Positions 1,936-30,535 of a stretch of DNA of 30,535 nucleotides are shown piece by piece (within the stretch, counting starts at the first letter, position 1; each line of letters starts with the position of its first letter). Both the position numbers and the translations under genes were made by a program. Origin of the DNA: an archaeon (lineage in GTDB: Archaea; Iainarchaeota; Iainarchaeia; Iainarchaeales; CSSED10-239). The notes below the pieces were generated by a model, which saw only the letters and a program-made list of their open reading frames with translations, searched no databases and was not told the DNA's origin. The DNA is taken from positions 1 to 30,535 of the forward strand of contig JBAYPN010000008.1 in assembly GCA_041677685.1 (NCBI GenBank), given 5' to 3'.

Positions 1936-3210
1936 TTATTTTTTCTTTTTCTTAAACAATTCTGAAATTATGTTAATTGCTGGCTTTATTAATATCTGAG
2001 TTAACCATCTAAGAATAACAATTAGTAAAGCTAAACCAACAACAATTCCAAGAATACTTATAATACTTAATATTATTGTTTTTCCTGAATTATTATCAGT
2101 TCCTTGCACAACATTAACTTCAATTGTCTTTGATATTTTTTGTTCTTTTAAATTTCTATCTTTATAATGTACATTGATTGTTAGAGGGTATGAGCCTGTT
2201 TCAAGTTTATTTGTAGTAAATTTAAAATCTACATTGTCATAGTTGTCTTTCTCAATAGAGCCTACAAAATACTTAGAAAAATTATTTGAAATTCCATTAT
2301 CTTCAATTTCAACATAAACAGATTCTGCATCTATATTACCTATGTTGTAAATTTCTAAAGAAAGACTTTCTTCAGTAAGGGTCTTGATTGTGCTATTGTC
2401 TCCGATTGATAAAACATTAATTACAATTTCTGGATTGTCTATAATCTCTATACCTAAGTTTTTAGTTGTGGTATAGGTACCATCATCATCAGCATATGTA
2501 ATTGTTATTGGAAGAGTGTAGCTTTTGTTGTTTGCAGTTTTTGAAATTGTTATTGTGAAATTGACTTGCTGTTCATTTCCAATATCTATCTTAGGTATAT
2601 ATTGTGTTTTTAAATTTAAAATTTGTACAGTTTCATCTTGTGAATCAGATAAGGTAACAAAGATGTCTTTTGCATTTTTTCCACCTAGATTTTTTAAAGT
2701 AAATTTAACATTTGAGTTTGCTCCAATACTTGCTTTATCAATATTTGAGTTGATAACATCAATTAAGGCAGGATCTCCTTTAACATCTATGTTGTATGTT
2801 TGAACTGAGTAGGTGTTTATTTCTTTTCTTTTAAATTTAAAGTCAAGTTTATAAGTTCCATCTAATGTTTCTTTTTCAGATTTTAAAGTATATTTTATAA
2901 TTCTTGATTGGTAGGGTGCAAGGGTTGCTATTATTCCTGTGTTGTTATTACTAACAATACTGAAAGGATATTTTGTATCTAAAAAATATTCAACATCATT
3001 TGCAACTTTGTTACTGTTGTTTGTTATTTGGATCCAGATATCAAAATCTTTGCCTGCAACTGTTGGGGTTGGTTGATAGTTGAATGTTTCTGCAGAAATA
3101 TTAATTATATCATAATCTGTTATTGCAGCATTGACTTGTATTGGGACAATTAACATTAACAAAAATATAATTAAGACTCCTATTTTTTTAATATGATTCA
3201 TTATTTTCAC
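1936..3210 (-). CDS. membrane-anchored cell-surface protein with CARDB/COG1361-like beta-sandwich repeats
   Basis: 424 aa. Sec-type signal peptide (IVPIQVNA/AITDYD). Repeated motifs of the type VKFTLKNLGGKNAKDIFVTLSD and LSLEIYNIGNIDAESVYVEIED. C-terminal TM (IILSIISILGIVVGLALLIVIL) and a KKKKK tail. Confidence 0.6.
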   Translation of the reverse strand: MKIMNHIKKIGVLIIFLLMLIVPIQVNAAITDYDIINISAETFNYQPTPTVAGKDFDIWIQITNNSNKVANDVEYFLDTKYPFSIVSNNNTGIIATLAPYQSRIIKYTLKSEKETLDGTYKLDFKFKRKEINTYSVQTYNIDVKGDPALIDVINSNIDKASIGANSNVKFTLKNLGGKNAKDIFVTLSDSQDETVQILNLKTQYIPKIDIGNEQQVNFTITISKTANNKSYTLPITITYADDDGTYTTTKNLGIEIIDNPEIVINVLSIGDNSTIKTLTEESLSLEIYNIGNIDAESVYVEIEDNGISNNFSKYFVGSIEKDNYDNVDFKFTTNKLETGSYPLTINVHYKDRNLKEQKISKTIEVNVVQGTDNNSGKTIILSIISILGIVVGLALLIVILRWLTQILIKPAINIISELFKKKKK

Positions 3211-8375: not shown

Positions 8376-8972
8376 ATGAGTGTAAAAGAAAATGATTGGA
8401 TATCTGTTGAATATACAGGGAAATTTGAAGATGGTAAAGTTTTTGATAGTAATGTTGGAAAGGAACCATTGAAGTTTAAAATTGGTGCAAGAATGGTTAT
8501 TCCTGGTTTTGAAAGAGCAGTTGTTGATATGGAAAAAGGTCAAGAAAAAGAAGTTGTTATTAAACCAGAAGATGGATATGGTCCAAAAAATGATGAAATT
8601 GTAGAATTATCAAAAGCAGCATTCCAAGATGCTTCAGTTATAGAGGAAGGTAAGGAATTAGAGATGATGACAAATATGGGACCCTTGTTGGTTGAGGTTA
8701 TTAAAATTGAAGAAGATAAAGTTAAAGTAAAACTAAATCATCCAATGGCTGGAAAAGTAATTCATTTTAAATTGAAAATATTGGATGTTCTAAATGAAGA
8801 AGAAGCAAAAAAAGAAGAACTTAACTTTCAAGAACAAATTAAAAAGATGAGAGAAGCACAAGAGAAGATGCAAGAAGAACATCACCATCATCATGGCCAC
8901 GATTGTGATTGTGGAGAGGATAGTTCTGAAGAAGATGATTGTTGTGATTGTGGAGAAGAACATAAACATTAA
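8376..8972 (+). CDS. slyD: FKBP-type peptidyl-prolyl isomerase, SlyD-like, with insert-in-flap domain and His/Cys-rich tail
   Basis: 198 aa. VEYTGKFEDGKVFDS and IPGFERAVVDMEKG FKBP motifs, IF-like insert, NHPMAGK. C-terminus EEHHHHHGHDCDCGEDSSEEDDCCDCGEEHKH. AGGAG Shine-Dalgarno upstream. Confidence 0.85.
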   Translation: MSVKENDWISVEYTGKFEDGKVFDSNVGKEPLKFKIGARMVIPGFERAVVDMEKGQEKEVVIKPEDGYGPKNDEIVELSKAAFQDASVIEEGKELEMMTNMGPLLVEVIKIEEDKVKVKLNHPMAGKVIHFKLKILDVLNEEEAKKEELNFQEQIKKMREAQEKMQEEHHHHHGHDCDCGEDSSEEDDCCDCGEEHKH

Positions 8973-14291: not shown

Positions 14292-14522
14292 TTGTTGCCT
14301 TCTACACAGCAAAAATTTGACTTAGTTATAAACTCCCTTGTATTTATAGCTTTCCTTTTTTCTAACCAAACATCAAGCTTTTTAAAGCTTATTCCTCTTT
14401 AATATACTTAATAAATAATTGTTCTTAGTTAAATAATTAATGTTTACCTAACATCAACAATTCCCTCCTTTTCTTTTTAATTTAATTTTTTAAAAAAAGG
14501 AAAGAGAAGTTTAAAAGGATTG

Positions 14523-15389
14523 ATGAGATTTATGAAAAAATATAAGAAAGTAATTTCAATTATGATATTTTTAATTTCAGCATTATTTATAACAATATCT
14601 TTATCTCACTTTGCTCAGGCAAATCAAATTGATTTAGATTTTTCACAAGTAATTAATCTAACAAATAGTCCAGTAACAAAGGATATTACAATAACCAATC
14701 TTTCCTCTCAATTAAAAAATTATAACCTTGAGATCTATTCAGCACCATTTACCTCACAACTAACCCCAAGTTCCTTTCAATTGGAAGCAGGTCAATCAAG
14801 GAAAGTAAGTTTAGAAGTTTTTCCTTTAGAAAACACCTTATACCAAAGGTATATTGCAAAGATCAAGGTAAACACAGACAATCAAGAAACCTATTATGAG
14901 TTTTTAATAATCCAGAATGATAATTTCTCTTGTGACACCACAATTCAGTCAGACATAAGTTATGATTCTAATTTAGACAATTATTCTTTATCTTTAGTTT
15001 TGTTAAACAAATCAAATAATATTCAATCCATATCCTTAGAGTCTTTAAAAAATTCAAATTTAGATGATGTTGATGGCTTTAAAGAAACAGAGGTTAGTTT
15101 GGAAAAAGATGAAGAAAAGATAATTAATTTTAATTTAAATTTAGAAGAGAAGGATGATTTGATTTTAAAGTATAAATGTAATGATATGTTATTTACAAAG
15201 AACATAGATTTTCAATATAAGGAAGAATTTAAAGAAGATATAAGTAACTTAACTTCTTATTTTTCATTTGTTAATCTAAAAGTTATTATCAATTCAATTT
15301 CCTTTCAATTAATTTTAGTTTTGATATTAGTAGGTTTAGTTTTATCTTTCTCAACAAGATATATAAAATTACTTTATAAAAAGAAATGA
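14523..15389 (+). CDS. membrane-anchored secreted protein (signal peptide plus C-terminal TM)
   Basis: About 288 aa from ATG 14523. Sec-type signal (LSHFAQA/NQIDL), CARDB-like strand pattern (KDITITNLSSQLKNYNLEIYS), C-terminal TM LILVLILVGLVLSF and a YKKK tail. Confidence 0.5.
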   Translation: MRFMKKYKKVISIMIFLISALFITISLSHFAQANQIDLDFSQVINLTNSPVTKDITITNLSSQLKNYNLEIYSAPFTSQLTPSSFQLEAGQSRKVSLEVFPLENTLYQRYIAKIKVNTDNQETYYEFLIIQNDNFSCDTTIQSDISYDSNLDNYSLSLVLLNKSNNIQSISLESLKNSNLDDVDGFKETEVSLEKDEEKIINFNLNLEEKDDLILKYKCNDMLFTKNIDFQYKEEFKEDISNLTSYFSFVNLKVIINSISFQLILVLILVGLVLSFSTRYIKLLYKKK

Positions 15390-15519
15390 TTTTGTGAAAT
15401 TAAATTAGATTAGAGATTTATAAAGTTTAAAAATTTTAAAAATTTAAAAAAGTTTAAAAATTGAAGAAAAATAAAAAAGGGGTTAAAATAAAAATATAAA
15501 TTAAAAAGGTGTGATTTTT

Positions 15520-17352
15520 ATGATAAAGAAAAGAAATAAAATATATTTATTTTTTGGAATACTTTTAATTTTAGGGGTATTATTTACAACAAATATCTTT
15601 GCATCTCAACTAGATAATGTAAACATTAGTTTTGAAAAGGAATATTATTCAGTAATTGAAGACAATCCTCTAACAGTTGTGTACACTCTTGAGAACAATA
15701 ACTCAGAGGTTGTTAATCTATTAGTTTATGCAAGTTGTGATAATGATGAGCTTAGCTGTAATTATTCAAAGACCTTTAATCTTGTAGGGAATTCAAATTT
15801 AAAAACCTCATTAGTTGTTAGAGCCTTAGATGATGACACAACAGATTTAAAATTATATATAAAGGACATGAATAACAATGAAGAGAAAAGTTACACAATT
15901 AGGATCTATGCAGAAGATGGGTTGGATGATGGGGACTTTGAAGTTGATATTCAAAAGACTTCTTTTTGTAAAGGGGAATCAATTACAAATTATATAATGA
16001 TTGATGATGTTTTATATTCTGGTCTATATAATTTAAGTTTAACAAGCCAAACATTATCAGTTGCATTAAAAGAATCAAATCCAATTTACTTAAATAGAAA
16101 TGAAAATAACATACCTTTTATGATAAGTATCCCAAAGGATCAATCTGAAGGAAATTATAATTTAAAATTAAAAATATATAATGAGGATGTTACAGTTGTT
16201 AAAAACTTTAGTGTCTATGTAAATGATTGCGCAGAGGTTGTTAACTCTGATCTCTTTGTTTCAGGACCAACAACAATAAGTTATATAATGTATAAGGGAG
16301 AGCCAATAACTTTTACTTTTACTTTAAGAAACACATCATTAAATAAAACTAAAGATTTCTTTATATCTTACGATAAAGATACACAACTTTCTGTTAGTCT
16401 TTCACAAAAACAAATAAGACTTTTGCCTGGTGAGATAAAGAAGATAGATGTTACAGTCTTAGCACCAATTACAATTCCTGCTGACGATTATGATCTAAAT
16501 TTAAGTTTCTTTGATGAGTTAGGTGTTATTAATAAAAAATATATTTTTAAAGTTCAACCTGACTATTACTTTAAAGCAAATTTGCAAGAAAGTAATTTAA
16601 TTTTAAATATTGGACAAATTACACAAACTAAGTTATTTTTGGAAAATATAGGAGATATAAAAGACACAATTAATATTTCTTATATTTTGTCAAATGATTT
16701 AAGAGTTACAACTTCTTCAACTAAGATTACATTAGATTCTAAGGAAGGTAAAGCAATTAGTTTTAATATTTTTTCAGGAGCAAACACTACTCCAAGAACA
16801 AGTGTTATTAGCTTTATTCTAAAAGGAACAAATAGTGATTTTTATAAGAAGATTGACTTAACAGTTGTTGCACTTAAGGAAAGTAATAAGTTAAAGATCT
16901 CTATGTTATCCTTTCCAACTGAATTAAATGTTTATAAAAATTCAACAAAGAAGTTTTCTTTTGAAATTAAAAATGATGGTCTAAATAAAATTAATATTTC
17001 AAAAATTGAATTAACATTTGATAAAGATTATAATCTAACATACACTTTCCCACAAAATATTTCTTTAGATTCAAAAGAATCAAAAGCAATTAATGGAAGT
17101 ATCAATGTTTCTGATCTACCAAATCAAAAAATAGAATCAGAGATTGTAATTTATGAATCAAGTGGTGTCTTTTCAAAGCCATTGGTAATTAATATTGTTG
17201 ATGAAAAAGACACTTCAAAGAAGAAAAGCATAATTGGTGGATTTTTTAGTTTAGGTAACTCAATTTTGTTTGGAATAATATTTTTAGCATTGCTGTTTAT
17301 TTTACTTTATTCTACAAGGGTTATTAAACACAAGCAATACAATAGACTTTAA
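15520..17352 (+). CDS. large membrane-anchored cell-surface protein with repeated CARDB/NEW3-like domains
   Basis: ATG 15520 is preferred over GTG 15511 because AGGTG lies 8 nt upstream. Signal peptide (TTNIFA/SQLDN). Repeated patterns FTFTLRNTSLNKTKDFFISY, TKLFLENIGDIKDTINISY, FSFEIKNDGLNKINISKIEL. C-terminal TM plus basic tail. Confidence 0.55.
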   Translation: MIKKRNKIYLFFGILLILGVLFTTNIFASQLDNVNISFEKEYYSVIEDNPLTVVYTLENNNSEVVNLLVYASCDNDELSCNYSKTFNLVGNSNLKTSLVVRALDDDTTDLKLYIKDMNNNEEKSYTIRIYAEDGLDDGDFEVDIQKTSFCKGESITNYIMIDDVLYSGLYNLSLTSQTLSVALKESNPIYLNRNENNIPFMISIPKDQSEGNYNLKLKIYNEDVTVVKNFSVYVNDCAEVVNSDLFVSGPTTISYIMYKGEPITFTFTLRNTSLNKTKDFFISYDKDTQLSVSLSQKQIRLLPGEIKKIDVTVLAPITIPADDYDLNLSFFDELGVINKKYIFKVQPDYYFKANLQESNLILNIGQITQTKLFLENIGDIKDTINISYILSNDLRVTTSSTKITLDSKEGKAISFNIFSGANTTPRTSVISFILKGTNSDFYKKIDLTVVALKESNKLKISMLSFPTELNVYKNSTKKFSFEIKNDGLNKINISKIELTFDKDYNLTYTFPQNISLDSKESKAINGSINVSDLPNQKIESEIVIYESSGVFSKPLVINIVDEKDTSKKKSIIGGFFSLGNSILFGIIFLALLFILLYSTRVIKHKQYNRL

Positions 17353-17386: not shown

Positions 17387-19075
17387 TTACTTTTTTATTC
17401 TTTCATTTAAATATTTCATATTCTCATTCATTTTTTCTATGTTCTTGTCAATTACAGCAATAAATTGTTTTTTAAAATTATCAAGTTCATCAATTTTTTC
17501 TTGTAACACATCTGCAAGTACCAACTTTTCCTGAAGTTTACTTTCTGCTTTTTTAATATCATTCATTTTGGATCTAAATTCTTGATTTATTGATGATTCA
17601 TATAGCTTTAGAGATTGGCTTATTTTTTCATCAATTGAGATAAGCAAGTCTTCTTCAAAGATTTTTAGTTCTCTTAATTTTCTGGTTATTTTTTCAGGAT
17701 CAGTTTTTTCTGCAATTTCTGTTCTTACTTTTTTAATTTCCTCTAGTTCCTTTTCAATTTGTTTAGTCATTGCATTTTTTGCTTTATTTAAAAATTCAAT
17801 TTTTACATTTTCAAATCTTTCTTCAAATCTGTTTGACAGGGTTAACTTAAAATTATCTAATTCTTCTAATTTTGAGTACAGCTTTTTTGGATCAATTTGT
17901 GATCTTATGTTTTTCTCAAATTCCACCAACTCTCTAATTTGTTGTTCTACACTTTGTTGTGTGTTTTTTACAAGCCCCTGTGTTATTCTAGATTGTAGTG
18001 CAAGGGTTGTATTTATTTCTTTAATTTTATCATTTAGTTTTGTTGTAATTGTAGAGATTATTTGTGTGATATTTTGTTGAGTTTCAACAATTATTTTTTT
18101 AGTTTTTTCTTTATTATCAATCAGGTTACTATTGATCGCTATATTTTTAGCTTCTGCATTTTTAATTAATTCATTTAATTTATCTTTACTTTCTTCAATT
18201 GTTGAAATTTTATTATTTAACTTGGCTTCAATTATTTTAAACTTTGCAAGTTCTGTTATTACTTTTGTGTTTATTTGGCTTTTTTCTTTTGATAGAACTT
18301 CTGTGATGTTATCAAATAACATTTGTTTACTTGAAAGCTGTATAGTGTTAATTTTTTTTATCTCTGAAGATAGTTTTTGTTTTAAGTCTTCTTCAAATTT
18401 TTTTTGTTTAAATTCTAGTTCATTTAATTTACTATTGATTGTTGTAAGTATTCCTGTTTGCCAAACAGAATCATAATTTTCTTGGGTAGGTTCTATGTTG
18501 TCAAAAGTGTTTTTTTGTTCAAAATTAAGATTATCAAATTTAGGTGGAGATATAGTTTCTTCTTTGTAATCTTCATTTTCAAACTTTGGTAAAGGTATAG
18601 TATCTTCTTCAAAGCTATTAAATTTTGGTGTTGGGAGTGTTATACTCTCATCAGTATCTATTTTTAAATCAGGCATTTTAGTTTCTGTTTTTATAATAGG
18701 GATTTCTGTTCTTTTTTTCTCTTCTTTGCTTGTAAAAAAGTCTATTGGTATTTCATTTTGTTTTTTAGTTTCTATAGTGTTAGTATTTTCTTGTTCTTTA
18801 GTTTTAGAAGTAATATTTTCTTTTTTGTTTTCACTTTCTTCTTTTATTTTATGATCTTCACTTTCTTTTTTTACCTTATTACTTTCTTCTATCTTTTCTT
18901 TTACTTTATAATCTTCATTTTTCGGTTTATTTTTCTCTTCAGTTTTATCAATTAGTTTTTGGCTATCTTCTTTTGATAGACCTATCTTTACAAGGTTATC
19001 AATTATTTCTTCATTTGTCATTCCAAGTTCTTTTAACTTAATAATATTTTCAATGACTCTATCATCAGCGATCAT
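17387..19075 (-). CDS. hypothetical long coiled-coil protein
   Basis: 562 aa. Small helical N-domain (residues 1-45), a K/E-rich linker with three PxPKF[DEN] motifs, then about 360 aa of heptad-rich sequence. No TM and no P-loop. Its start overlaps the adk stop (ATGA). Confidence 0.6.
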   Translation of the reverse strand: MIADDRVIENIIKLKELGMTNEEIIDNLVKIGLSKEDSQKLIDKTEEKNKPKNEDYKVKEKIEESNKVKKESEDHKIKEESENKKENITSKTKEQENTNTIETKKQNEIPIDFFTSKEEKKRTEIPIIKTETKMPDLKIDTDESITLPTPKFNSFEEDTIPLPKFENEDYKEETISPPKFDNLNFEQKNTFDNIEPTQENYDSVWQTGILTTINSKLNELEFKQKKFEEDLKQKLSSEIKKINTIQLSSKQMLFDNITEVLSKEKSQINTKVITELAKFKIIEAKLNNKISTIEESKDKLNELIKNAEAKNIAINSNLIDNKEKTKKIIVETQQNITQIISTITTKLNDKIKEINTTLALQSRITQGLVKNTQQSVEQQIRELVEFEKNIRSQIDPKKLYSKLEELDNFKLTLSNRFEERFENVKIEFLNKAKNAMTKQIEKELEEIKKVRTEIAEKTDPEKITRKLRELKIFEEDLLISIDEKISQSLKLYESSINQEFRSKMNDIKKAESKLQEKLVLADVLQEKIDELDNFKKQFIAVIDKNIEKMNENMKYLNERIKK

Positions 19076-20153: not shown

Positions 20154-20324
20154 ATGGCAAAAAATGAAAAATGGGATGATGATTACGATGACGATGAATA
20201 TGTGGATGACGATGATTACAAGCCCAAACAATCTGATAAAAAACCAGTAAATAAAAACAAGAAAGTTTATGAAGAAGAAGATGACGAAGACTTTTATGAC
20301 GATGATGACGATGAAGAATACTAA
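20154..20324 (+). CDS. unannotated hyper-acidic 56-aa protein
   Basis: Own translation: MAKNEKWDDDYDDDEYVDDDDYKPKQSDKKPVNKNKKVYEEEDDEDFYDDDDDEEY, TAA stop. GGAGG lies 11 nt upstream of the ATG. 27 of 56 residues are D/E and 8 are aromatic. Below the track cutoff. Confidence 0.5.
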   Translation: MAKNEKWDDDYDDDEYVDDDDYKPKQSDKKPVNKNKKVYEEEDDEDFYDDDDDEEY

Positions 20325-25084: not shown

Positions 25085-25996
25085 ATGCTTTACAATTTAG
25101 ATCTACATACTCATTTTAAAGTAAGGACTAAATCTCCAAGAAGATATTGGTCAAAAGTAATTTCAGAAAATCTTTTAGGAACAGCCATAACTGAGTATAA
25201 CTTTTCTAACCCTAAAAAAGCATATTTTGATCTAATTACAAGAAAACCAAAAGACAAGATCTTAATTCCAGGAATGAAAATAAAAACAGATGGTGGAGAG
25301 GTTCTAATTTTTTCAGAGTCTCCAGACATTTACAATTATAGTTTATTATATGAGGATAACATTTCTTTAAACAGACTGATTGATTTTTGTAAGAAAAAAA
25401 ATTACTTAATCTCAATTGCACATCCATTTGGATTAATTTCAAATTCTGCAACATACATTCTAGGTTTAAATAAATTAGAAAAAATAATTAAAGAAAAAAA
25501 GATTGGTGTAGAGGCGTACACAGGAACAATTGGTTATTTGTCTTATTATTTGTTTGATTCTTTCTTTTTAAGGAAATTAAGAGTGTTATTAGATTTTTTG
25601 GAACTACATAAGATGTTTAAAGTTATTGGGCTTTCAGAAATTAGTGAGTTTTTTACACAAAAGCTAGATCAGAAAAGTTATGATATTGTTTATAAATTTG
25701 AAGCAGCAATCAAGCTTGGAAAGATTGCAAGTTACATTACTGCAGGGTCAGGTAGCACAGAAATTAACTCCATAGGCAGTGGGGTAGTTACTCTTGATCT
25801 TCCAAAAAGCCTAATTGAAGAGAAAGATGAGCTTATAAGAAATAAATTAATATTAAATAGAATAAGTAAGAAAAAAATAAAAACTGTTGGTCCACCAGGC
25901 AACTACACAGACAAACTGTTCCAAAGATCGACTGCAAGGAAAACAAAAAGAAAAGCATATGTGGATTTAATGTATTTAACTAAGAGGTCTGTATAG
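25085..25996 (+). CDS. PHP-domain-like protein with degenerate metal-binding motifs
   Basis: 303 aa. LDLHTHF (motif I), ISIAHPFG and GVEAYTG resemble PHP phosphoesterases. The positions expected as TDH and GSDAH read TEY and GSGST. Confidence 0.4.
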   Translation: MLYNLDLHTHFKVRTKSPRRYWSKVISENLLGTAITEYNFSNPKKAYFDLITRKPKDKILIPGMKIKTDGGEVLIFSESPDIYNYSLLYEDNISLNRLIDFCKKKNYLISIAHPFGLISNSATYILGLNKLEKIIKEKKIGVEAYTGTIGYLSYYLFDSFFLRKLRVLLDFLELHKMFKVIGLSEISEFFTQKLDQKSYDIVYKFEAAIKLGKIASYITAGSGSTEINSIGSGVVTLDLPKSLIEEKDELIRNKLILNRISKKKIKTVGPPGNYTDKLFQRSTARKTKRKAYVDLMYLTKRSV

Positions 25997-26086: not shown

Positions 26087-26830
26087 ATGAATGAATTATA
26101 TATTCCAATTATTGTTTTTACAATAATTATTTTAGGCTATATGACCTATCAGGATTTTAAATATAGAGAAATAAATATAATTTCTTTAATTGCTTTAGCT
26201 TTATTTAGTATCTTGTACTTGTGGTTATTTATTTTTAAATCAGATGTAGTTTTATGGAATAAATATTTATTGCAATTATTAATCTCTTTTGTTTTTATTT
26301 TAATATTTTTCACTTTAGGGAAATTTAGTAAATTTGTGTATATTGGGGAGGGAGACCTATATACAATTTTGGCAATATCATTTACAAACATATTTAGTGT
26401 TTTGTTTATTTTGTTTTTATTTTTATTATCTTTGTTAGTTACCTTGTTAATTCCTATTTCAATATTTGTTTATAATTTAAGTATGAGACATAAACCAAAC
26501 TATGGTTTTTTAAGTTCATTGTTTTTGATGTTTTTAGGTTACCCTTTAAAGTTAAAATCAATAACTAACTTTTATACACCTTTAGAGAGATTTGAAGAAA
26601 TTAAGGATAACAAATATTTAAAGGTTGTAAATTTTAAACCAAACATTGAGCCTACAAAGGAGCTTAGTAAGATTAAAAAAATTGCAAATTTAGAAAAGGT
26701 TGAAAAGATATGGGTTTCTCCCTTAATCCCATTTGTTATTTCTATTCTTATTTCTTACATAATTTTAATAATTATTATAGTAAATGATGGACTTTTAGTA
26801 GTTAGTAATTTTATAATTAATATTTTATAA
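26087..26830 (+). CDS. type IV prepilin/preflagellin peptidase (A24 family, FlaK/PibD-like)
   Basis: 247 aa polytopic protein. First catalytic Asp context YQDFKYREIN and second Asp in the GxGD motif YIGEGDLY. Confidence 0.7.
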   Translation: MNELYIPIIVFTIIILGYMTYQDFKYREINIISLIALALFSILYLWLFIFKSDVVLWNKYLLQLLISFVFILIFFTLGKFSKFVYIGEGDLYTILAISFTNIFSVLFILFLFLLSLLVTLLIPISIFVYNLSMRHKPNYGFLSSLFLMFLGYPLKLKSITNFYTPLERFEEIKDNKYLKVVNFKPNIEPTKELSKIKKIANLEKVEKIWVSPLIPFVISILISYIILIIIIVNDGLLVVSNFIINIL

Positions 26831-26900
26831 TATATATATTTTATAAATATAATGAACTATATAAAATATAGAATAGAACTATAAAGTAATTTGCATAATT

Positions 26901-29795
26901 ATGGGTAATATAATGGAAGAAAGTAAAAAAGTAGAATTTGTTAATTTAAAAAAAATTAATGTACTTGATAATTCTTTCTCTATTAAAAAAAATGTTAATC
27001 CTGTTTATGATGATAAGGGATCTTTTAAAAGAAGCTTAGAGAAATTTAAAGTAAAGGATACAAAAAAGGTAGAAGATTTTAAAGGTTTTGTGGATTTAAA
27101 AAAAGTTGATAATTTAGATCTTGAAATTAAAAAGCAAACTGTTTTTAAAAAGCAAGTTGATGCTTCTAAAAAAAATGAAATTATTGAAACATTAAATAAA
27201 GATATTAAAAAAGATTTTTCTAAAGTTATTAAAACTAATTTGCAGATTTCTAAATTAGAAGATAAAAATGAAATAAATATTGTAAATAAAAATTTAAATA
27301 AAAGAGCTGTAAGTAAAAGAGATTTAAAAGATAAAGGCAAAGATAGAGATGAAGACAAAAAAAAGAGTAATAATTTAGGCATAGTAATACATGATATTTC
27401 AGTTTCTAATGTTGAAGAAAAAAATATTAATGATCTTTTGTTAGAGTTAGAAAATAAAACCACAAAATTAGAAAAAGATTCTGATTTTATAGAAAGTTTT
27501 TCTTTTTTAGATGATGTTCCTTCTGTTAAAAAAATATCTTACAAATCTTATAAATCAAATAATCTATTTTCTAAATTAGATTCTGTTTCTAAAAGTAATA
27601 AAGAAAAAGGGAAAGAAAGTAAGAATTTAGAATATGGTAACTTTGCAAACATTAGCTTTGAGGATAGTAATTTTGAAGAATTAGAGATTCCTAATATTAT
27701 TCCTTTAAAAGATGTGTCTGAAGGGAATTATAATAATGATGAATTTATTAGTTTTGAAAAGGATTCTAAAGAGACTCAAATAAATGAACCTGTTTTTTTA
27801 GATTCAAAAGACGGACTTTCTTTAAATTCTGATTTAGAGAAAAGAACTTTGCAAGTAGATAAGTTAATTGTAAACAAATATAAAAATAAAAGAAATAGCC
27901 AATTTGGAAAAGATGAAATAATAAATAAGGCAAATGAAGATGATGATGTTACTAAAAAAGTATTAAGCCCAGATTTCATATATAAAAATAATTTGAATTC
28001 AGGAAAAGATATTCAAGTTCCAACTAATGATGTAAACCTTAAAAGAGCTGATTTTTCTAATGACAATTTAGATCTTAAAAGAGAAAAAGCTTACAATCAA
28101 GATTTAGATTCTAAAAGAGAAAAAGCTTACAATCAAGACTTAGATTCTAAAAGAGAAAAAGCTTACAATCAAGACTTAGATTCTAAAAGAGAAAATGAAC
28201 TTAAAACTAAGAATGAAAACTTTGAAAATCTATCTAAAAAATATTCGAAGAAAATGTCCAAAAATCAAAACCAAGACACACAAAAAGAATCTAAAATAGA
28301 ATTCTTATTTCCAAAGGATAGAAATATTTCAAAATATATTTTGCCTGATGAAAAAGTATTTGACTCAAATTTATCTAAATATGACTTAAATGAAAAAAAA
28401 TACCCAAGCTTAGTTTATTCAGTTGATCTTGAAAAATTTGAACATGATAAAAAAAATATTTTTAGCAAATATAATATAGACGAGTTTACATATGTTACAA
28501 TTTATTTTAAAAAAGAAAAAAATGAACTTCTTTACAGTATAGTTCAACCAGAATTAAGTAAAGACCAATCTAAAGAATACTTAGAAATTAAAAAAATATT
28601 CTTTAACACAATTGATAAAAGTTATTATTATTTTAATGGAGATAAATATAATGTTGATCAATATATCTCAAAGATATTTGATCTAACCTTAGACAAATTA
28701 TCCTACTCTCTTGACTCATTAAAAAAGAAACTATACTTAAAATTTATTATTAGAGAATTTTCAGGTCTTGGTTTTTTAACAAATTTATTATTAGATAAAA
28801 AAATATTAGAAATAAGTTGTGCTGGAGAAGATTCAGACATTTCTGTATACCACATAGATTATGGTGTTCTAAACACAAACCTAAAATTTAATTCAATTCC
28901 TGAACTAAATCACTTTGTAATTACTTTAACAAAGAATATGGGGTTATTTATTAACTCCACAAACCCTGTAATTAATGGATATCTACCAAATGGGTATAAG
29001 GTAGAGGGATTATATTCTGTAGGAGACACAAGCAGCAAAGGTTCTTCTTTTGTTATTAAAAAATATTTAGATCAACCATTAACTCCAATTTCTTTAATCA
29101 AAACAAGCATAGGTGTTATAGATGTCTTCTCATACATTTGGTCTGCAATGTCACAAGGTTATAAAGTTGTCTTGTCAGGAAATGATGACAGCTACACAAT
29201 CTTTAATTCAATTACACTATTTTTACCTAACAAAAAAATAATCTCTGTTCAAGCATATGATAGATTGAAGTTACCTCAAAAGGAATGGGTTAAAAAAACA
29301 TTTATAGGTAATGACAAAATCACTAAAAAAGATCTAATAGAGCAAACTATATCACAAAGACCTGACTACATTATTGTTGATGAGTTTGATAATTCTATGT
29401 TTGATTTAGCATGGTATAATCTTGATTTGTTTACTATTGATAAAAAGATATTGCCTAAGTTAAGATCTAATTTAGAATTAATTAATTTAAATGTAATTAT
29501 TATTGATCTTAAGAAATTAAAGTATGGTTTAAAAGAAGGAATCCAAATTACAGATGTTCATGAGTATTCTGACAGAAAGGAAACAAAGGTAATTGAGTTT
29601 GATGAAGTTAATAACAGCTACCATATTAATCTCTTATCCTCTCAAATAGATGTTGTGGAGTTTACAAAGAAAAAGAAAATGTTAAGATGGATGAGAGACT
29701 CTAAAATATACAATTATAAAGACTTTAATAATATTTGCTCTCAATATATATTAGATAAAAATAAAATAATTAAAAGATTAGGTATTGAATTGTAA
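26901..29795 (+). CDS. FlaI/PilB-family (T2SSE) secretion-ATPase homolog with degenerate nucleotide-binding motifs and a long low-complexity N-terminal extension
   Basis: 964 aa. Residues about 505-964 follow the FlaI pattern: YSIVQPEL, LGFLTNLLLDKKILEISCAG, PVINGYLPNGYKVEG, GSSFVIKKY, PLTPISLI, RPDYIIVDEF, and C-terminal MLRWMRDSKIYNY. The Walker A position reads SGNDDSYTI and has no Lys. Confidence 0.7.
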   Translation: MGNIMEESKKVEFVNLKKINVLDNSFSIKKNVNPVYDDKGSFKRSLEKFKVKDTKKVEDFKGFVDLKKVDNLDLEIKKQTVFKKQVDASKKNEIIETLNKDIKKDFSKVIKTNLQISKLEDKNEINIVNKNLNKRAVSKRDLKDKGKDRDEDKKKSNNLGIVIHDISVSNVEEKNINDLLLELENKTTKLEKDSDFIESFSFLDDVPSVKKISYKSYKSNNLFSKLDSVSKSNKEKGKESKNLEYGNFANISFEDSNFEELEIPNIIPLKDVSEGNYNNDEFISFEKDSKETQINEPVFLDSKDGLSLNSDLEKRTLQVDKLIVNKYKNKRNSQFGKDEIINKANEDDDVTKKVLSPDFIYKNNLNSGKDIQVPTNDVNLKRADFSNDNLDLKREKAYNQDLDSKREKAYNQDLDSKREKAYNQDLDSKRENELKTKNENFENLSKKYSKKMSKNQNQDTQKESKIEFLFPKDRNISKYILPDEKVFDSNLSKYDLNEKKYPSLVYSVDLEKFEHDKKNIFSKYNIDEFTYVTIYFKKEKNELLYSIVQPELSKDQSKEYLEIKKIFFNTIDKSYYYFNGDKYNVDQYISKIFDLTLDKLSYSLDSLKKKLYLKFIIREFSGLGFLTNLLLDKKILEISCAGEDSDISVYHIDYGVLNTNLKFNSIPELNHFVITLTKNMGLFINSTNPVINGYLPNGYKVEGLYSVGDTSSKGSSFVIKKYLDQPLTPISLIKTSIGVIDVFSYIWSAMSQGYKVVLSGNDDSYTIFNSITLFLPNKKIISVQAYDRLKLPQKEWVKKTFIGNDKITKKDLIEQTISQRPDYIIVDEFDNSMFDLAWYNLDLFTIDKKILPKLRSNLELINLNVIIIDLKKLKYGLKEGIQITDVHEYSDRKETKVIEFDEVNNSYHINLLSSQIDVVEFTKKKKMLRWMRDSKIYNYKDFNNICSQYILDKNKIIKRLGIEL
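28065..28195 (+). repeat. in-frame 36-bp tandem repeat, about 3.6 copies (DLDSKREKAYNQ)
   Basis: Units at 28065-28100, 28101-28136 and 28137-28172, plus a partial unit at 28173-28195. The central copies differ at one nucleotide. Confidence 0.9.
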
Positions 29796-29844
29796 AAAGA
29801 TAAAAATTAAAATTATATAAGATTAATTAAAAAGGAAAAGAAAC

Positions 29845-30535
29845 ATGTTTGGAAAAGTAATTACAAAAATATCATCCTATTTTTTTAAAGACATAGTCCA
29901 AAAATTAGAATATAGATTTAAAGATCTTTCCTTAGTTTTAGAACACACAAGTATAAATGAAGATGTTGTTTCCTATCTTTCTAATATTCTATTTATCTCT
30001 TTGTGCTTTACTCTTGTTTTAGAATTCTTTTTAATATTTTTAATGTTAAAGTTAAACATATTTTTTAATTTCTTTAGCTTTATAGTAACCATCTTTGTTT
30101 CTGGAACCTTTGGGGTTATGGTTTTTTTAATTCTTTATAAATTTCCATATTATCTTTTAGATTCTAAAAAGAAAGAATTAAACTTAGAGGTTGAGAGAAG
30201 TGTAAAGCACCTTTCTGTTTTAAAAGATGAAAAATTAACAATTAAAGATGTTTTAGTTATTTTACAAAATTTAGAAGGAAACAAGATTTTAACGATTGAA
30301 GCTACAAGGCTTTTGACTCTTTCAAATCTAAATAATAACCTAAGGGATACTCTTTTGTCAGCAATTAATAAAACCTACTCAGAAGCAGAAAAAAATTTCT
30401 TTTTTAAACTAGTAGATGTTATTGATAAAAAAGATACTTTATCAAATGTAGTTATGGATTATTTAGGGAGCTTAGAGCAATCTAAAAAGGAAATTAATGA
30501 ACAAAAGAAAAGTAGAATCAATTTATTATTTCAAG
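29845..30535 (+). CDS. FlaJ/TadC-like (T2SSF family) membrane platform protein, truncated by window end
   Basis: Own translation from ATG 29845: MFGKVITKISSYFFKDIVQKLEYRFKDL..., two TMs, then a cytoplasmic helical domain (VERSVKHLSVLKDEKLTIKDVLVILQNLEGNKILT...). Open to the window end. It sits directly downstream of the FlaI-like gene, as in archaeal pilus and archaellum operons. Confidence 0.55.
   Translation, partial: MFGKVITKISSYFFKDIVQKLEYRFKDLSLVLEHTSINEDVVSYLSNILFISLCFTLVLEFFLIFLMLKLNIFFNFFSFIVTIFVSGTFGVMVFLILYKFPYYLLDSKKKELNLEVERSVKHLSVLKDEKLTIKDVLVILQNLEGNKILTIEATRLLTLSNLNNNLRDTLLSAINKTYSEAEKNFFFKLVDVIDKKDTLSNVVMDYLGSLEQSKKEINEQKKSRINLLFQ

What the first reader, a model, noticed from the sequence alone, without database searches (positions are those of the whole stretch)
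26087..30535. Pilus/archaellum-like assembly locus whose FlaI-family subunit appears to be a pseudo-ATPase with a ~500-aa disordered extension
The locus order is A24 peptidase, FlaI/PilB-family protein, FlaJ/TadC-like platform, which is the classic archaeal type IV filament assembly core. The C-terminal ~460 aa of the 964-aa protein track the FlaI family closely along their whole length.

The catalytic positions are substituted within an intact reading frame:
- The Walker A position (family consensus G-x-T-G/A-S-G-K-T-T) reads SGNDDSYTI. There is no Lys or Arg anywhere in SGNDDSYTIFNSITLFLPN.
- The Asp-box position (IEDTxE) reads VQAYDRL.
- GEVRGxE reads DEFDNSM.
- No T-x-HA His-box equivalent is visible.

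Residues 1-504 are Lys/Asp/Asn/Ser-rich low complexity with no TM and no recognisable domain. A motor-family protein kept in its operon position but apparently unable to hydrolyse ATP suggests one of two things. It may have become a scaffold or adaptor, with the extension as an interaction platform. Alternatively the filament may be energised by a paralog encoded elsewhere. I do not know of a described FlaI-family pseudo-ATPase of this architecture.
Basis: partly seen in the sequence, partly recalled or inferred. Interest (0 to 1): 0.72.

Follow-up and report, generated by a model that had tools for sequence, protein, structure and literature searches.

The report
Dead motor protein in archaeal pilus operon
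A small group of tiny symbiotic-type archaea (Iainarchaeota) keeps, under strong selection, a pilus-assembly "motor" protein that has lost every residue needed to burn ATP and has gained a long floppy N-terminal tail, while a normal motor ATPase is encoded a few genes away.

Summary
Window 26087-30535 holds an A24 prepilin peptidase, a 964-aa FlaI/GspE-fold protein and the first half of a split FlaJ/TadC platform. Residues 505-964 match archaeal GspE/FlaI over their full length by sequence, profile and predicted fold. Walker A, Asp box, Walker B Gly-Glu, the arginines and the His box are all replaced or deleted.

It is not an artefact or a decaying gene. About 24 orthologues share the same substitutions. 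The core has dN/dS of 0.06-0.14 and diverges as slowly as housekeeping genes.

The family is restricted to Iainarchaeota (DPANN), including the complete Forterrea genome. It always sits in one cluster: PHP-like protein, peptidase, pseudo-ATPase, two FlaJ halves, DUF192, pilins.

The N-extension (290-750 aa) is mostly disordered and fast-evolving, with lineage-specific tandem repeats. It also carries four to six conserved short islands.

The same genomes encode a canonical ATPase fused to a 4Fe-4S domain, with its own two TadC genes, 0-25 kb downstream.

Most likely the protein is a non-catalytic structural or adaptor subunit on its platform, with energy supplied in trans. I found no published description. 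Verdict: new variant of a known kind, interest about 0.6.

The parts
25085..25996 (+). 303-aa PHP-fold protein with an incompletely conserved metal-binding motif set. It is the conserved first gene of the cluster.
   Evidence: No Pfam or PDB sequence hit. AF2 gives pLDDT 81.7. Foldseek hits PHP phosphoesterases: 7rty at 5.7e-7 and 7ug9 at 3.1e-5. The HxH motif and the terminal D/H motif are not conserved. It has the same phyletic range and lies on the same contigs as the pseudo-ATPase. It is syntenic in most loci.
26087..26830 (+). A24 (FlaK/PibD-type) prepilin peptidase, apparently active.
   Evidence: Arc_PepC_II 3.5e-13, Peptidase_A24 0.0025, NCBIfam FlaK 8.4e-10. Both catalytic Asp are present: D23 in YQDFKYREI and GEGD at 87-90 (sequence). 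Syntenic in all loci with enough flank.
26901..29795 (+). 964-aa FlaI/GspE-family pseudo-ATPase (whole gene).
   Evidence: NCBI records MCK9292689.1 and MFA7575932.1 call it a 'hypothetical protein'.
26901..28412 (+). N-terminal extension, aa 1-504. Mostly disordered, K/N/D/S-rich and fast-evolving.
   Evidence: pLDDT below 50 for most of it. Composition and absence of a TM segment. 25% identity to the Forterrea orthologue against 59% for the core. dN/dS 0.26-0.81. Length varies from about 290 to about 750 aa among orthologues.
27426..27590 (+). Conserved island 1 in the extension (aa 176-230: D..L..L...T...PF.E..SFLDD.P..KI...NLYSKID). Predicted as a small helix/hairpin/helix unit.
   Evidence: Invariant or near-invariant columns D177, L179, L183, F196, E198, S201, F202, L203, P207, I212, L222, Y223, K225, D227. 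pLDDT 60-65, with H176-188, E196-201, E208-213 and H222-234.
27663..27716 (+). Conserved island 2 (aa 255-272: E-E-[IL]-E-I-P-x-I..L.DD).
   Evidence: E259, P264, D271 and D272 are conserved. By a strict regex the motif was detected in 17 of the 33 family sequences scanned, plus the distant member P0186 and two canonical proteins. By eye it is also present in the closest canonical relative P0187 (IEGIEIPEI) and in P0251.
27795..27893 (+). Conserved island 3 (aa 299-331: hairpin plus helix, N-P-x-I-E-x-K-I-K).
   Evidence: N309 is invariant. pLDDT 75-79, with E299-302, E305-308 and H310-331.
28068..28195 (+). 36-bp x 3.6 tandem repeat encoding DLDSKREKAYNQ units, inside a predicted long helix (aa 393-452).
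   Evidence: TRF score 235 with 96% matches. Variant P0037 (952 aa) has exactly one unit fewer. The Forterrea orthologue has an unrelated 15-aa x 5 repeat. PMC5905446 shows repeats inside a 'secretion-related ATPase'.
28290..28325 (+). Conserved island 4 (aa 464-475: [FI]-x-Y-I-L-P-x-D), just before the folded core.
   Evidence: Y468, L470, P471 and D473 are conserved.
28413..29078 (+). FlaI/GspE-type N-terminal domain (aa 505-726), the most conserved part. The canonical nucleotide-contacting arginines are replaced by Lys (K700, K720).
   Evidence: pLDDT is about 90.
29079..29795 (+). RecA-like C-terminal domain plus C-terminal helical subdomain (aa 727-964), catalytically degenerate.
   Evidence: hhalign is full-length. 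Foldseek TM 0.71 on 2OAP.
29175..29231 (+). Walker A (P-loop) remnant SGNDDSYTIFNSITLFLPN. It is 2-3 residues shorter than canonical, has no Lys/Thr, and has invariant G760 and D763.
29247..29267 (+). Asp-box remnant VQAYDRL. Canonical E..E is replaced by invariant Q784 and D787.
29358..29387 (+). Walker B remnant RPDYIIVDEF. The canonical Gly is replaced by invariant D827. The Glu position is variable in the family, and the Arg of GEVRG is lost.
29406..29450 (+). His-box position. There is a 5-residue deletion and no conserved His.
29842..30535 (+). First half of a split FlaJ/TadC platform protein, cut by the window end. The full gene is 280 aa in L008:12945-13787. It is followed there by the second half (378 aa), DUF192 and two class III signal-peptide pilins.
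   Evidence: NCBIfam ArlJ 5.4e-8. T2SSF 8.5e-5 and 6e-6 for the two halves, DUF192 4.3e-11. Pilin N-termini are KKA|LSPIISVILLILVAA and EKS|LSPIISVILLVLVAA. Synteny.

Best explanation
**What it is.** The 964-aa gene encodes a catalytically dead paralogue of the archaeal FlaI/GspE (T2SSE) assembly ATPases. It is retained as a non-enzymatic structural or adaptor subunit of a type IV pilus-like machine in Iainarchaeota.

**Shown.**
1. The two-domain FlaI/GspE fold is complete, but every nucleotide-binding or hydrolysis element is substituted or deleted. This covers the P-loop Lys/Thr, Asp-box Glu, Walker B Gly-Glu, the Arg residues and the His box. The same substitutions occur in all orthologues.
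2. The core is under strong purifying selection and evolves as slowly as the active ATPase and housekeeping genes of the same genomes.
3. The gene always lies between an apparently active A24 prepilin peptidase and a split FlaJ/TadC platform, followed by DUF192 and class III pilins.
4. The same genomes encode a canonical T2SSE ATPase fused to a 4Fe-4S domain, with its own two TadC-like genes. That module has no peptidase or pilins beside it, and lies 0 to about 25 kb downstream.

**Inferred.**
1. The dead protein still docks, probably as a ring, on the cytoplasmic face of its cognate FlaJ platform. Its highly conserved N-terminal domain and its conserved operon position suggest this.
2. The variable-length disordered N-extension, with its conserved short motifs, acts as a tether or interaction hub.
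3. The ATP-dependent step of pilin extraction and polymerisation is supplied in trans by the Fe-S ATPase/TadC module. ATPase/TadC modules are known to act on pilins encoded elsewhere in other archaea.
For: **Fold and homology.**
- PDB sequence hits: 2OAP at 5.3e-35 and 4II7 at 1.1e-27.
- hhalign probability 100, E 1.9e-39, full length.
- AF2 pLDDT about 90 for residues 505-964.
- Foldseek 9e-32 to 2OAP and 1.6e-30 to FlaI.

**Loss of motifs.**
- Alignments show canonical invariant residues replaced: G-K-T by D763-x-x with a deletion, E by Q784, G by D827, R by K700, K720 and S818, and H by D847.
- All 13 family representatives in an exhaustive search lack Walker A and the His box. Nearly all lower-scoring hits have them.

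**Selection.**
- Core dN/dS is 0.06-0.14.
- Window versus Forterrea identities are: core 59%, canonical ATPase 62%, beta-CASP 63%, FlaJ halves 52-56%, peptidase 57%.

**Not an artefact.** The identical sequence is present in several NCBI, JGI and ENA assemblies.

**Context.**
- Conserved gene order in L001-L004, L008-L022 and L029.
- Pilins with class III signal peptides.

**Active paralogue in the same genomes.**
- L016:10080-11870 has an intact GNTGSGKTT, VEEVRE, IGEIRN and TTFHS, directly adjacent to the cluster.
- NCBI accession pairs from the same assemblies: MFA7575932 versus MFA7575951, MCK9292689 versus MCK9292506, and others.
- On one Forterrea contig, the DUF192 and pilin genes of the cluster and the Fe-S ATPase lie 10 kb apart.
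- Forterrea's complete 839,632-bp chromosome carries both genes.

**Precedent.** ATPase/TadC modules using pilins in trans are described in PMC4858521.
Against: - No biochemical data exist. Inability to bind or hydrolyse ATP is inferred from motifs only.
- No multimer model could be made, so ring formation and docking on FlaJ are untested.
- From my own knowledge (Reindl et al. 2013), FlaI hexamerisation is nucleotide-dependent. A protein without a P-loop might therefore not form a ring at all.
- The Fe-S ATPase has its own TadC genes and is widespread in DPANN without the pseudo-ATPase. It may therefore be an independent machine.
- The linkage of the two clusters could simply reflect general synteny of these small genomes. 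Only in L016 are they adjacent.
- No evidence shows what the N-extension binds.
Confidence: 0.6

Rival explanations
1. Negative regulator or static cap. The dead protein occupies the motor-binding site of its FlaJ platform to block or lock it. It would hold an assembled filament in place or prevent assembly until displaced. It would not cooperate positively with the active ATPase.
For: - It retains the fold and the operon position but not catalysis.
- The cognate platform genes are separate from the platform of the active ATPase.
- The long regulatory-looking disordered extension carries short conserved motifs.
Against: - A pure inhibitor would not be expected to be the only ATPase-family gene in the one cluster that carries the peptidase and the pilins, across all lineages.
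- There is no evidence for a second ATPase able to bind this particular platform.
Confidence: 0.17
2. Repurposed, filament-independent machine. The peptidase, dead ATPase, FlaJ, DUF192 and PHP-like proteins form a membrane complex that only processes or positions class III signal-peptide proteins, or serves another envelope function. It would not polymerise anything, so no motor is needed.
For: - The cluster contains two extra conserved, lineage-restricted genes that are not standard pilus parts: the PHP-like protein and DUF192.
- Two enzyme folds in the cluster look degenerate.
- Large secreted proteins follow the pilins.
Against: - Typical pilins with class III signal peptides are in the cluster.
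- The FlaJ halves are conserved at the same level as in active systems.
- An active ATPase/TadC module without pilins is nearby, which fits a shared filament system better.
Confidence: 0.13
3. Cryptic enzyme. The protein still binds and hydrolyses a nucleotide, or binds a nucleotide-like ligand as a sensor, through a non-canonical site.
For: - The former active-site region keeps invariant polar or acidic residues: D763, Q784, D787, D827 and E888.
- The window copy has E828 at the Walker B Glu position.
Against: - The P-loop is shortened by 2-3 residues and has no Lys, Arg, Ser or Thr in the right places.
- All three phosphate-contacting Arg and both His-box His are gone.
- E828 is not conserved.
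- The invariant replacements are acidic, which would repel phosphates.
Confidence: 0.06
4. Artefact or decaying pseudogene. A frameshift or assembly error masks a normal ATPase, or the gene is a recent relic.
For: None found. The only hint is that the repeat region in the extension is prone to assembly collapse.
Against: - The reading frame is intact, and no Walker A peptide exists in any frame.
- The identical protein occurs in independent assemblies.
- About 24 orthologues share the same substitutions.
- dN/dS is 0.06-0.14.
Confidence: 0.01

Closest known systems
Archaeal secretion ATPase afGspE (PDB 2OAP) and archaellum ATPase FlaI/ArlI (PDB 4II7, 4IHQ); Pfam T2SSE PF00437
   Same: - It has the same two-domain architecture (N-terminal domain plus RecA-like C-terminal domain plus C-terminal helices).
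- It is alignable over the whole length at 21-28% identity.
- It has the same gene neighbourhood, with FlaJ/TadC and an A24 peptidase.
   Different: - All catalytic motifs are lost and there is no Pfam T2SSE hit.
- The NCBIfam FlaI score is 130 against a cutoff of 550.
- It has a 290-750-aa disordered N-extension.
- No archaellum accessory genes are present.
DPANN FlaI-type pilus ATPases with a short N-extension (e.g. P0187, locus L030; P0025, loci L005-L007)
   Same: - They are the closest canonical relatives by profile score.
- Their loci also have two TadC-like genes and small putative pilins.
- P0187 shares the E-I-P-E-I motif in its N-terminal extension.
   Different: These proteins keep intact Walker A, Walker B and His box and are 520-580 aa long.
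Other degenerate FlaI-like proteins found here: P0186 (824 aa), P0251 (514 aa), P0242 (610 aa)
   Same: - P0186 has a K-rich N-extension, lost motifs and the same operon of peptidase, pseudo-ATPase and two T2SSF genes.
- P0186 and P0251 group with the family in a neighbour-joining tree (97 of 100 bootstraps).
   Different: - P0186 is only about 31% identical and comes from a 32% GC organism.
- P0251 keeps GxxxxGK but has His in place of Thr, and has no long extension.
- P0242 is an independent degeneration inside a canonical clade.
- Long-branch attraction cannot be excluded for the grouping.
ArlH/FlaH of the archaellum, and the GspL cytoplasmic domain and PilM of bacterial T2SS/T4P (own knowledge)
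   Same: These are non-hydrolysing or degenerate ATPase-fold proteins. They serve as structural or regulatory partners at the cytoplasmic face of type IV filament machines.
   Different: - They belong to other folds (KaiC/RecA-like and actin-like).
- They accompany an active T2SSE ATPase in the same operon.
- Here the degenerate protein is itself the T2SSE homologue and takes the motor's place.
Haloferax volcanii PilB3-PilC3 type ATPase/TadC modules that act on pilins encoded in trans (PMC4858521)
   Same: The Fe-S ATPase plus two-TadC module here lacks pilins and a peptidase. It would have to use those of the pseudo-ATPase cluster.
   Different: - In H. volcanii the pilin genes are stand-alone, with no pseudo-ATPase or second platform beside them.
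- The ATPase here carries an N-terminal 4Fe-4S domain.

Membership tests
T2SSE / FlaI-GspE-PilB secretion ATPase superfamily | Two-domain fold (N-terminal domain plus RecA-like C-terminal domain) alignable to solved members | tested here: met
   hhalign probability 100, E 1.9e-39. Foldseek 9e-32 to 2OAP with TM 0.71 on the target. phmmer 5.3e-35.
T2SSE / FlaI-GspE-PilB secretion ATPase superfamily | Walker A GxxxxGK[ST] | tested here: not met
   It aligns to SGND--DS with a 2-3-residue deletion and no Lys/Thr. It is absent in all family members.
T2SSE / FlaI-GspE-PilB secretion ATPase superfamily | Asp box (acidic residues E..E after Walker A) | tested here: not met
   The canonical invariant E is replaced by invariant Q784. 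The second E is replaced by Y or variable residues.
T2SSE / FlaI-GspE-PilB secretion ATPase superfamily | Walker B hhhhGE with the catalytic Glu, and the following Arg (GEVRG) | tested here: not met
   Gly is replaced by invariant D827. The Glu position is E, N, T, K or D across the family. The Arg is replaced by Thr or variable residues.
T2SSE / FlaI-GspE-PilB secretion ATPase superfamily | His box (GH....T.HA) | tested here: not met
   There is a 5-residue deletion and no conserved His.
T2SSE / FlaI-GspE-PilB secretion ATPase superfamily | Pfam PF00437 at gathering threshold | tested here: not met
   No T2SSE hit even at E<=1. None of the 24 orthologues carries a precomputed PF00437 hit.
T2SSE / FlaI-GspE-PilB secretion ATPase superfamily | ATP-dependent hexamer with ATPase activity | not testable with these tools
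   This needs purified protein, or at least multimer modelling. Neither was available.
Archaellum motor FlaI/ArlI (NCBIfam NF058587 equivalog) | Score above the equivalog cutoff, and an operon with ArlH, ArlF/G, ArlCDE or ArlX, and archaellins | tested here: not met
   130 bits against a cutoff of 550. No such genes lie within +/-10 kb in L008, L012 or L016.
Archaeal type IV pilus locus (as in the census PMC4858521) | FlaK/PibD-type A24 prepilin peptidase | tested here: met
   Arc_PepC_II 3.5e-13 and FlaK 8.4e-10. Both catalytic Asp are present.
Archaeal type IV pilus locus (as in the census PMC4858521) | FlaJ/TadC polytopic platform (often two genes) | tested here: met
   Two adjacent genes with T2SSF hits at 8.5e-5 and 6e-6 and ArlJ at 5.4e-8. 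Two TadC genes per locus are common.
Archaeal type IV pilus locus (as in the census PMC4858521) | Pilins with class III signal peptide | tested here: met
   L008:15469-16008 and L008:16116-16637 begin ...KKA|LSPIISVILLILVAA and ...EKS|LSPIISVILLVLVAA. Pfam Pilin_N and Arch_flagellin hits are only weak, at 0.075 and 0.036. This is therefore met by motif and not by HMM.
Archaeal type IV pilus locus (as in the census PMC4858521) | Active VirB11/T2SSE-family assembly ATPase in the module | tested here: not met
   The only T2SSE homologue in the cluster is the pseudo-ATPase. An active one lies 0 to about 25 kb away in a separate ATPase/TadC module.
Pseudoenzyme (general concept) | Clear homology to an enzyme family, loss of catalytic residues, and retention under purifying selection | tested here: met
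   Homology. Loss of residues. dN/dS of 0.06-0.14 and housekeeping-like divergence.

The most novel reading that the evidence does not exclude
Iainarchaeota may have evolved a two-module type IV filament machine. In it, the platform that handles the pilins is permanently capped by a nucleotide-free, constitutively 'closed' dead ring. Invariant Lys residues in the N-terminal domain and invariant Asp/Gln residues in the former active site would mimic the ATP-bound state. The ring's long motif-bearing tether would recruit a separate, redox-sensing (4Fe-4S) ATPase/TadC motor. Alternatively, the capped platform may work with no ATPase at all, as a static conduit or anchor at a symbiont-host contact. 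Either case would be a new way of building or controlling a type IV filament machine.
Probability: 0.18. Interest if true: 0.85.

Novelty: new variant of a known kind. Interest (0 to 1): 0.62.

Why it matters
The T2SSE/FlaI ATPase is the most conserved, defining engine of all type IV filament machines: pili, archaella, T2SS and competence pili. Genome censuses use it as the marker for these systems. A lineage that keeps the homologue in its operon slot for a long evolutionary time, while destroying every catalytic element, gives a natural separation of the motor's structural role from its enzymatic role.

It also shows that ATPase-based annotation ("archaellum biosynthesis ATPase" in IMG) can be functionally wrong.

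The case points to cooperation between two platform modules and to a role for a long disordered tether. It adds two lineage-specific candidate components, the PHP-like protein and DUF192, for DPANN cell-surface biology, where pili are thought to mediate host contact.

It is directly testable, because a complete genome (Ca. Forterrea) and many orthologues are available.

Tried and rejected
- **Literature.** Seven full-text searches found no description of a T2SSE/FlaI-family pseudo-ATPase. I also read the archaeal T4P census, the 'dark matter' review, the Forterrea paper and one further paper. The Forterrea paper only mentions repeats inside a 'secretion-related ATPase'.
- **Viral structure library.** A Foldseek search of the model gave nothing at E<=0.001.
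- **Same-contig proof for the window organism.** Listing more contigs of the Fe-S ATPase returned only short or unrelated records. Same-genome evidence for the window organism therefore rests on NCBI accession proximity. Direct same-contig evidence exists only for Forterrea and L016.
- **Whole-genome scan of the Forterrea chromosome.** A scan for further T2SSE genes, pilins or peptidases was not possible.
- **E-I-P-E-I motif.** I tested whether it is general in canonical DPANN FlaI-like ATPases. A strict regex found it in 17 of the 33 family sequences scanned, in the distant pseudo-ATPase P0186, and in only two canonical proteins. By eye it is present in P0187 and P0251. It remains a lead only.
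- **Context of P0251.** Its contigs are too short to be informative.
- **Phylogeny.** The first script timed out and a faster NJ version was used. Its deep nodes should be treated cautiously.
- **Artefact or pseudogene reading.** Considered and rejected on conservation, dN/dS and independent assemblies.
- **Archaellum reading.** Considered and rejected on the equivalog score and missing accessory genes.


Full report
**1. What is in the window**

The window is 25% GC and carries archaeal housekeeping genes. These include seryl-tRNA synthetase, SMC, NMD3, a beta-CASP nuclease, adenylate kinase, TrkAH, MscS, an FKBP, ABC/MacB-type transporters and CARDB surface proteins.

- 26087-26830 is a 247-aa A24 prepilin peptidase. 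It hits Arc_PepC_II at 3.5e-13 and NCBIfam FlaK at 8.4e-10. Both catalytic aspartates are present: D23, and GEGD at 87-90.
- 26901-29795 is the 964-aa protein.
- From 29842 an ORF runs off the window. It hits ArlJ/FlaJ at 5.4e-8.

**2. The 964-aa protein is a FlaI/GspE homologue over the whole C-terminal 460 residues**

- Pfam T2SSE does not hit at all, even at E<=1.
- NCBIfam FlaI hits at 9e-38, with 130 bits, far below the equivalog cutoff of 550.
- phmmer against PDB finds the Archaeoglobus secretion ATPase GspE (2OAP) at 5.3e-35 and Sulfolobus FlaI (4II7) at 1.1e-27.
- A profile of 20 orthologues aligns to a profile of canonical relatives with probability 100 and E 1.9e-39. The alignment spans 436 columns and covers canonical positions 47-535 of 546.
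- An AlphaFold2 model built on 32 sequences has pLDDT of about 90 for residues 505-964.
- Foldseek matches 2OAP at 9e-32 (TM 0.71 normalised on the target) and FlaI at 1.6e-30. CpaF, VirB11, PilT and PilB follow.

The fold is therefore complete, including the part after Walker B where sequence searches lose the signal.

**3. Every catalytic element is gone, and the loss is family-wide**

The pairwise and profile alignments agree.
- Canonical GG(T/V)xxGKT(T) aligns with SGND--DS, a 2-3-residue deletion that removes Gly-Lys. Family consensus here is TG-x-D, with invariant G760 and D763.
- The Asp-box Glu becomes invariant Q784.
- The Walker B Gly becomes invariant D827. The catalytic Glu position is E, N, T, K or D across the family. 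The window copy happens to have E828.
- The Arg-Gly of GEVRG is lost.
- The His box is removed together with a 5-residue deletion.
- The conserved arginines become K700, K720 and S818.

No Walker A-like peptide exists in any frame of the region.

**4. It is real, conserved and under strong purifying selection**

- The exact protein is present in several independent NCBI, JGI and ENA assemblies, on contigs up to 212,901 bp. A near-identical variant is annotated 'Candidatus ainarchaeum sp.'.
- A word-indexed search of 5.8 billion proteins found 24 orthologue clusters at 46-60% identity. All lack a T2SSE Pfam hit. The next hits, at 1e-30 and weaker, are canonical FlaI-like ATPases.
- An exhaustive HMMER profile search of 1.84 billion representatives gave 16-18 family representatives above 690 bits. 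There is then a gap down to 256 bits.
- All family representatives lack Walker A and the His box. Essentially all lower hits have GxxxxGKT, PDYxxVGE and GH..T.HA.
- Between the window organism and Ca. Forterrea the core is 59% identical. For comparison, the canonical ATPase of the same two genomes is 62%, beta-CASP 63%, the FlaJ halves 52-56% and the peptidase 57%.
- Nei-Gojobori dN/dS for the core is 0.06-0.14 in the five closest pairs. For the N-extension it is 0.26-0.81. dS is about 1-1.9, so the values are approximate.

**5. The N-terminal extension**

Residues 1-504 are K/N/D/S-rich, have no hydrophobic segment and are mostly below pLDDT 50. The extension evolves fast: it is 25% identical to Forterrea. 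Its length ranges from about 290 to about 750 aa among orthologues.

It is not featureless. The 20-sequence alignment shows conserved islands.
- An N-terminal (M)VELKK[IL] motif.
- aa 176-230, predicted helix-hairpin-helix at pLDDT 60-65.
- aa 255-272, E-I-P-x-I..L.DD.
- aa 299-331, hairpin plus helix with NPxIExKIK, at pLDDT 75-79.
- aa 464-475, YILPxD.

A 36-bp x 3.6 tandem repeat at 28068-28195 encodes DLDSKREKAYNQ units inside a predicted long helix. One natural variant has exactly one unit fewer. The 1116-aa Forterrea orthologue has an unrelated 15-aa x 5 repeat. The Forterrea genome paper shows repeats within a 'secretion-related ATPase' that confused assemblies (PMC5905446).

The picture is a variable-length tether carrying conserved short docking motifs.

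**6. Taxonomic range**

A scan of one genome per GTDB species found 14 loci. All are from Iainarchaeota/Diapherotrites or unclassified 'archaeon' MAGs. One is the complete 839,632-bp chromosome of Ca. Forterrea multitransposorum.

A distant member is P0186, 824 aa, with a K-rich extension and lost motifs. It occurs in a 32% GC archaeon with the same operon of peptidase, pseudo-ATPase and two T2SSF genes.

In a neighbour-joining tree the family is monophyletic in 100 of 100 bootstraps. It groups with P0186 and the partly degenerate P0251 in 97 of 100. Long-branch effects are possible. P0242 is an independent degeneration inside a canonical clade.

**7. The locus is larger than the finding**

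A metagenome contig identical to the window (L008) extends it. After the first FlaJ half (280 aa, T2SSF 8.5e-5) come:
- the second half (378 aa, T2SSF 6e-6);
- a DUF192 protein (4.3e-11);
- two 173-179-aa proteins with textbook class III signal peptides (KKA|LSPIISVILLILVAA);
- three paralogous secreted proteins of about 460 aa.

Upstream at 25085-25996 is a 303-aa protein with no Pfam or PDB sequence hit. Its homologues form 49 clusters at 56-77% identity. They occur only in the same lineage and on the same contigs as the pseudo-ATPase. Its AF2 model (pLDDT 81.7) matches PHP-domain phosphoesterases (7rty at 5.7e-7, 7ug9 at 3.1e-5). The HxH and terminal Asp/His metal motifs are not conserved.

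The order PHP-like, peptidase, pseudo-ATPase, FlaJ-1, FlaJ-2, DUF192 (then pilin) holds in essentially all loci with enough flank.

**8. An active ATPase is encoded in the same genomes**

No canonical ATPase lies within the cluster. In L016, however, the gene directly after DUF192 encodes a 596-aa protein. It has N-terminal 4Fe-4S cysteine motifs and an intact T2SSE domain (GNTGSGKTT, VEEVRE, IGEIRN, TTFHS). Two TadC-like genes follow it.

Its family is large, with 4951 hits at E<=1e-10, and is DPANN-wide.

Same-genome evidence comes from three sources.
- The window organism's copy (P0158/P0043) carries NCBI accessions from the same assemblies as the pseudo-ATPase, 19 to 385 numbers apart. Examples are MFA7575932 versus MFA7575951 and MCK9292689 versus MCK9292506.
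- The Forterrea copy (P0162) lies on the 839,632-bp chromosome.
- On a 663-kb Forterrea contig, the DUF192 and pilin genes of the cluster and the Fe-S ATPase lie 10 kb apart.

That module has its own two TadC-like genes but no peptidase or pilins. The archaeal T4P census documents ATPase/TadC modules that use pilins encoded in trans, and loci with two tadC genes (PMC4858521).

**9. Interpretation**

*Shown:* a complete FlaI/GspE fold without any catalytic motif; strong purifying selection; a fixed operon position between an apparently active peptidase and a platform with pilins; and an intact T2SSE ATPase/TadC module in the same genomes.

*Inferred:*
- The protein still docks on its FlaJ platform as a non-catalytic structural subunit. 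Its N-terminal domain, which forms the inter-subunit and nucleotide-clamping surface in active homologues, is its most conserved part.
- The extension is a tether or hub.
- ATP-dependent pilin polymerisation is provided in trans by the Fe-S ATPase module.

I put about 0.9 on 'conserved catalytically dead FlaI homologue that is a functional part of a pilus-type cluster'. I put about 0.6 on the full statement including the scaffold role and trans-energisation.

Rivals are:
- an inhibitory or locking cap (0.17);
- a filament-independent processing complex (0.13);
- a cryptic non-canonical nucleotide site (0.06);
- an artefact or pseudogene (0.01).

**10. Comparison with the known, and novelty**

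It works like other degenerate ATPase-fold partners at the base of type IV filament machines. Examples, from my own knowledge, are ArlH/FlaH, the GspL cytoplasmic domain and PilM. Unlike them, it is itself the T2SSE homologue and replaces the motor in the operon.

It fails five of the sequence-defined membership features of the T2SSE ATPase family while meeting the fold criterion. It fails the FlaI equivalog test. It should therefore be filed as a FlaI/GspE-derived pseudo-ATPase and not as FlaI.

Public annotations call it 'hypothetical protein' or 'archaellum biosynthesis ATPase'. I found no paper describing such a protein. The library does not cover all subscription journals.

I rate it a new variant of a known kind, with interest 0.62. 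It is surprising to specialists because the ATPase is the defining engine of these machines. The surprise is tempered by the nearby active paralogue and by the generality of pseudoenzymes.

Noticed in passing
window 25085-25996 (+): A 303-aa lineage-restricted protein lies directly upstream of the peptidase and is the most conserved gene of the cluster (71% identity to Forterrea). It has no Pfam or PDB sequence hit. Its predicted fold is a PHP-domain phosphoesterase, but the HxH motif (H8 in 22/45, H10 in 32/45) and the terminal Asp/His motif (here GSG[TS]) are not conserved. It may be a second degenerate enzyme in the same cluster.
   Followed up: yes
L016:10080-11870; L023:10001-11740; L027:10001-11764: A family of T2SSE ATPases is fused to an N-terminal 4Fe-4S ferredoxin-like domain and is followed by two short TadC-like genes and a VTT-domain protein. 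The family is large (4951 hits at E<=1e-10) and spread over DPANN (Iainarchaeota, Micrarchaeota). The archaeal T4P census read here contains no occurrence of the words ferredoxin, 4Fe or Fe-S.
   Followed up: partly
window 28068-28195: A 36-bp x 3.6 in-frame tandem repeat lies in the N-extension. A natural variant has one unit fewer (P0037, 952 aa). Orthologues carry unrelated repeats at the equivalent place, such as VPLDKVDNSNISKKE x 5 in Forterrea. This suggests selection on spacer length rather than on sequence, or assembly-prone variation.
   Followed up: partly
P0251, P0242 (loci L037/L038 for P0251): Further FlaI-like proteins have partly degenerate motifs. P0251 has GKAKSGKH, PDYFILD and no His box. 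P0242 has GTGRTS, GD in place of GE, and D in place of the His-box His. Inactivation of this motor family has probably happened more than once in uncultivated archaea.
   Followed up: partly
L008:14985-15350 (just beyond the window end); also L012:13519-13860: A DUF192 (COG1430) protein is invariably encoded right after the second FlaJ half in all orthologous loci. It is not a recognised pilus component.
   Followed up: no
L008:18497-22670: Three tandem paralogous genes encode signal-peptide proteins of about 460 aa with Asn/Ser/Thr/Ile-rich repeats and no Pfam hit, downstream of the pilins. They could be adhesins or surface proteins.
   Followed up: no
window 8376-8972 (+): An FKBP-type (SlyD-like) peptidyl-prolyl isomerase has a C-terminal His/Cys/Asp/Glu-rich tail (HHHHHGHDCDCGEDSSEEDDCCDCGEEHKH). 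The tail is probably metal-binding.
   Followed up: no
window 20154-20324 (+): A 56-aa ORF is made almost entirely of Asp, Glu, Tyr and Lys (MAKNEKWDDDYDDDEYVDDDDYK...). An ORF of the same position and size is called in L008.
   Followed up: no
window 1936-3210 (-), 14520-15389 (+), 15511-17352 (+): Three predicted surface proteins have an N-terminal signal or TM segment and a C-terminal TM anchor followed by a basic tail. One has CARDB domains (1.2e-12). This is typical DPANN cell-surface inventory next to ABC/MacB-type transporters.
   Followed up: no
window 17387-19075 (-): A 562-aa Lys/Glu-rich, probably coiled-coil protein has no Pfam hit. It is conserved in the same syntenic position next to adenylate kinase in L001, L003 and L008.
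   Followed up: no
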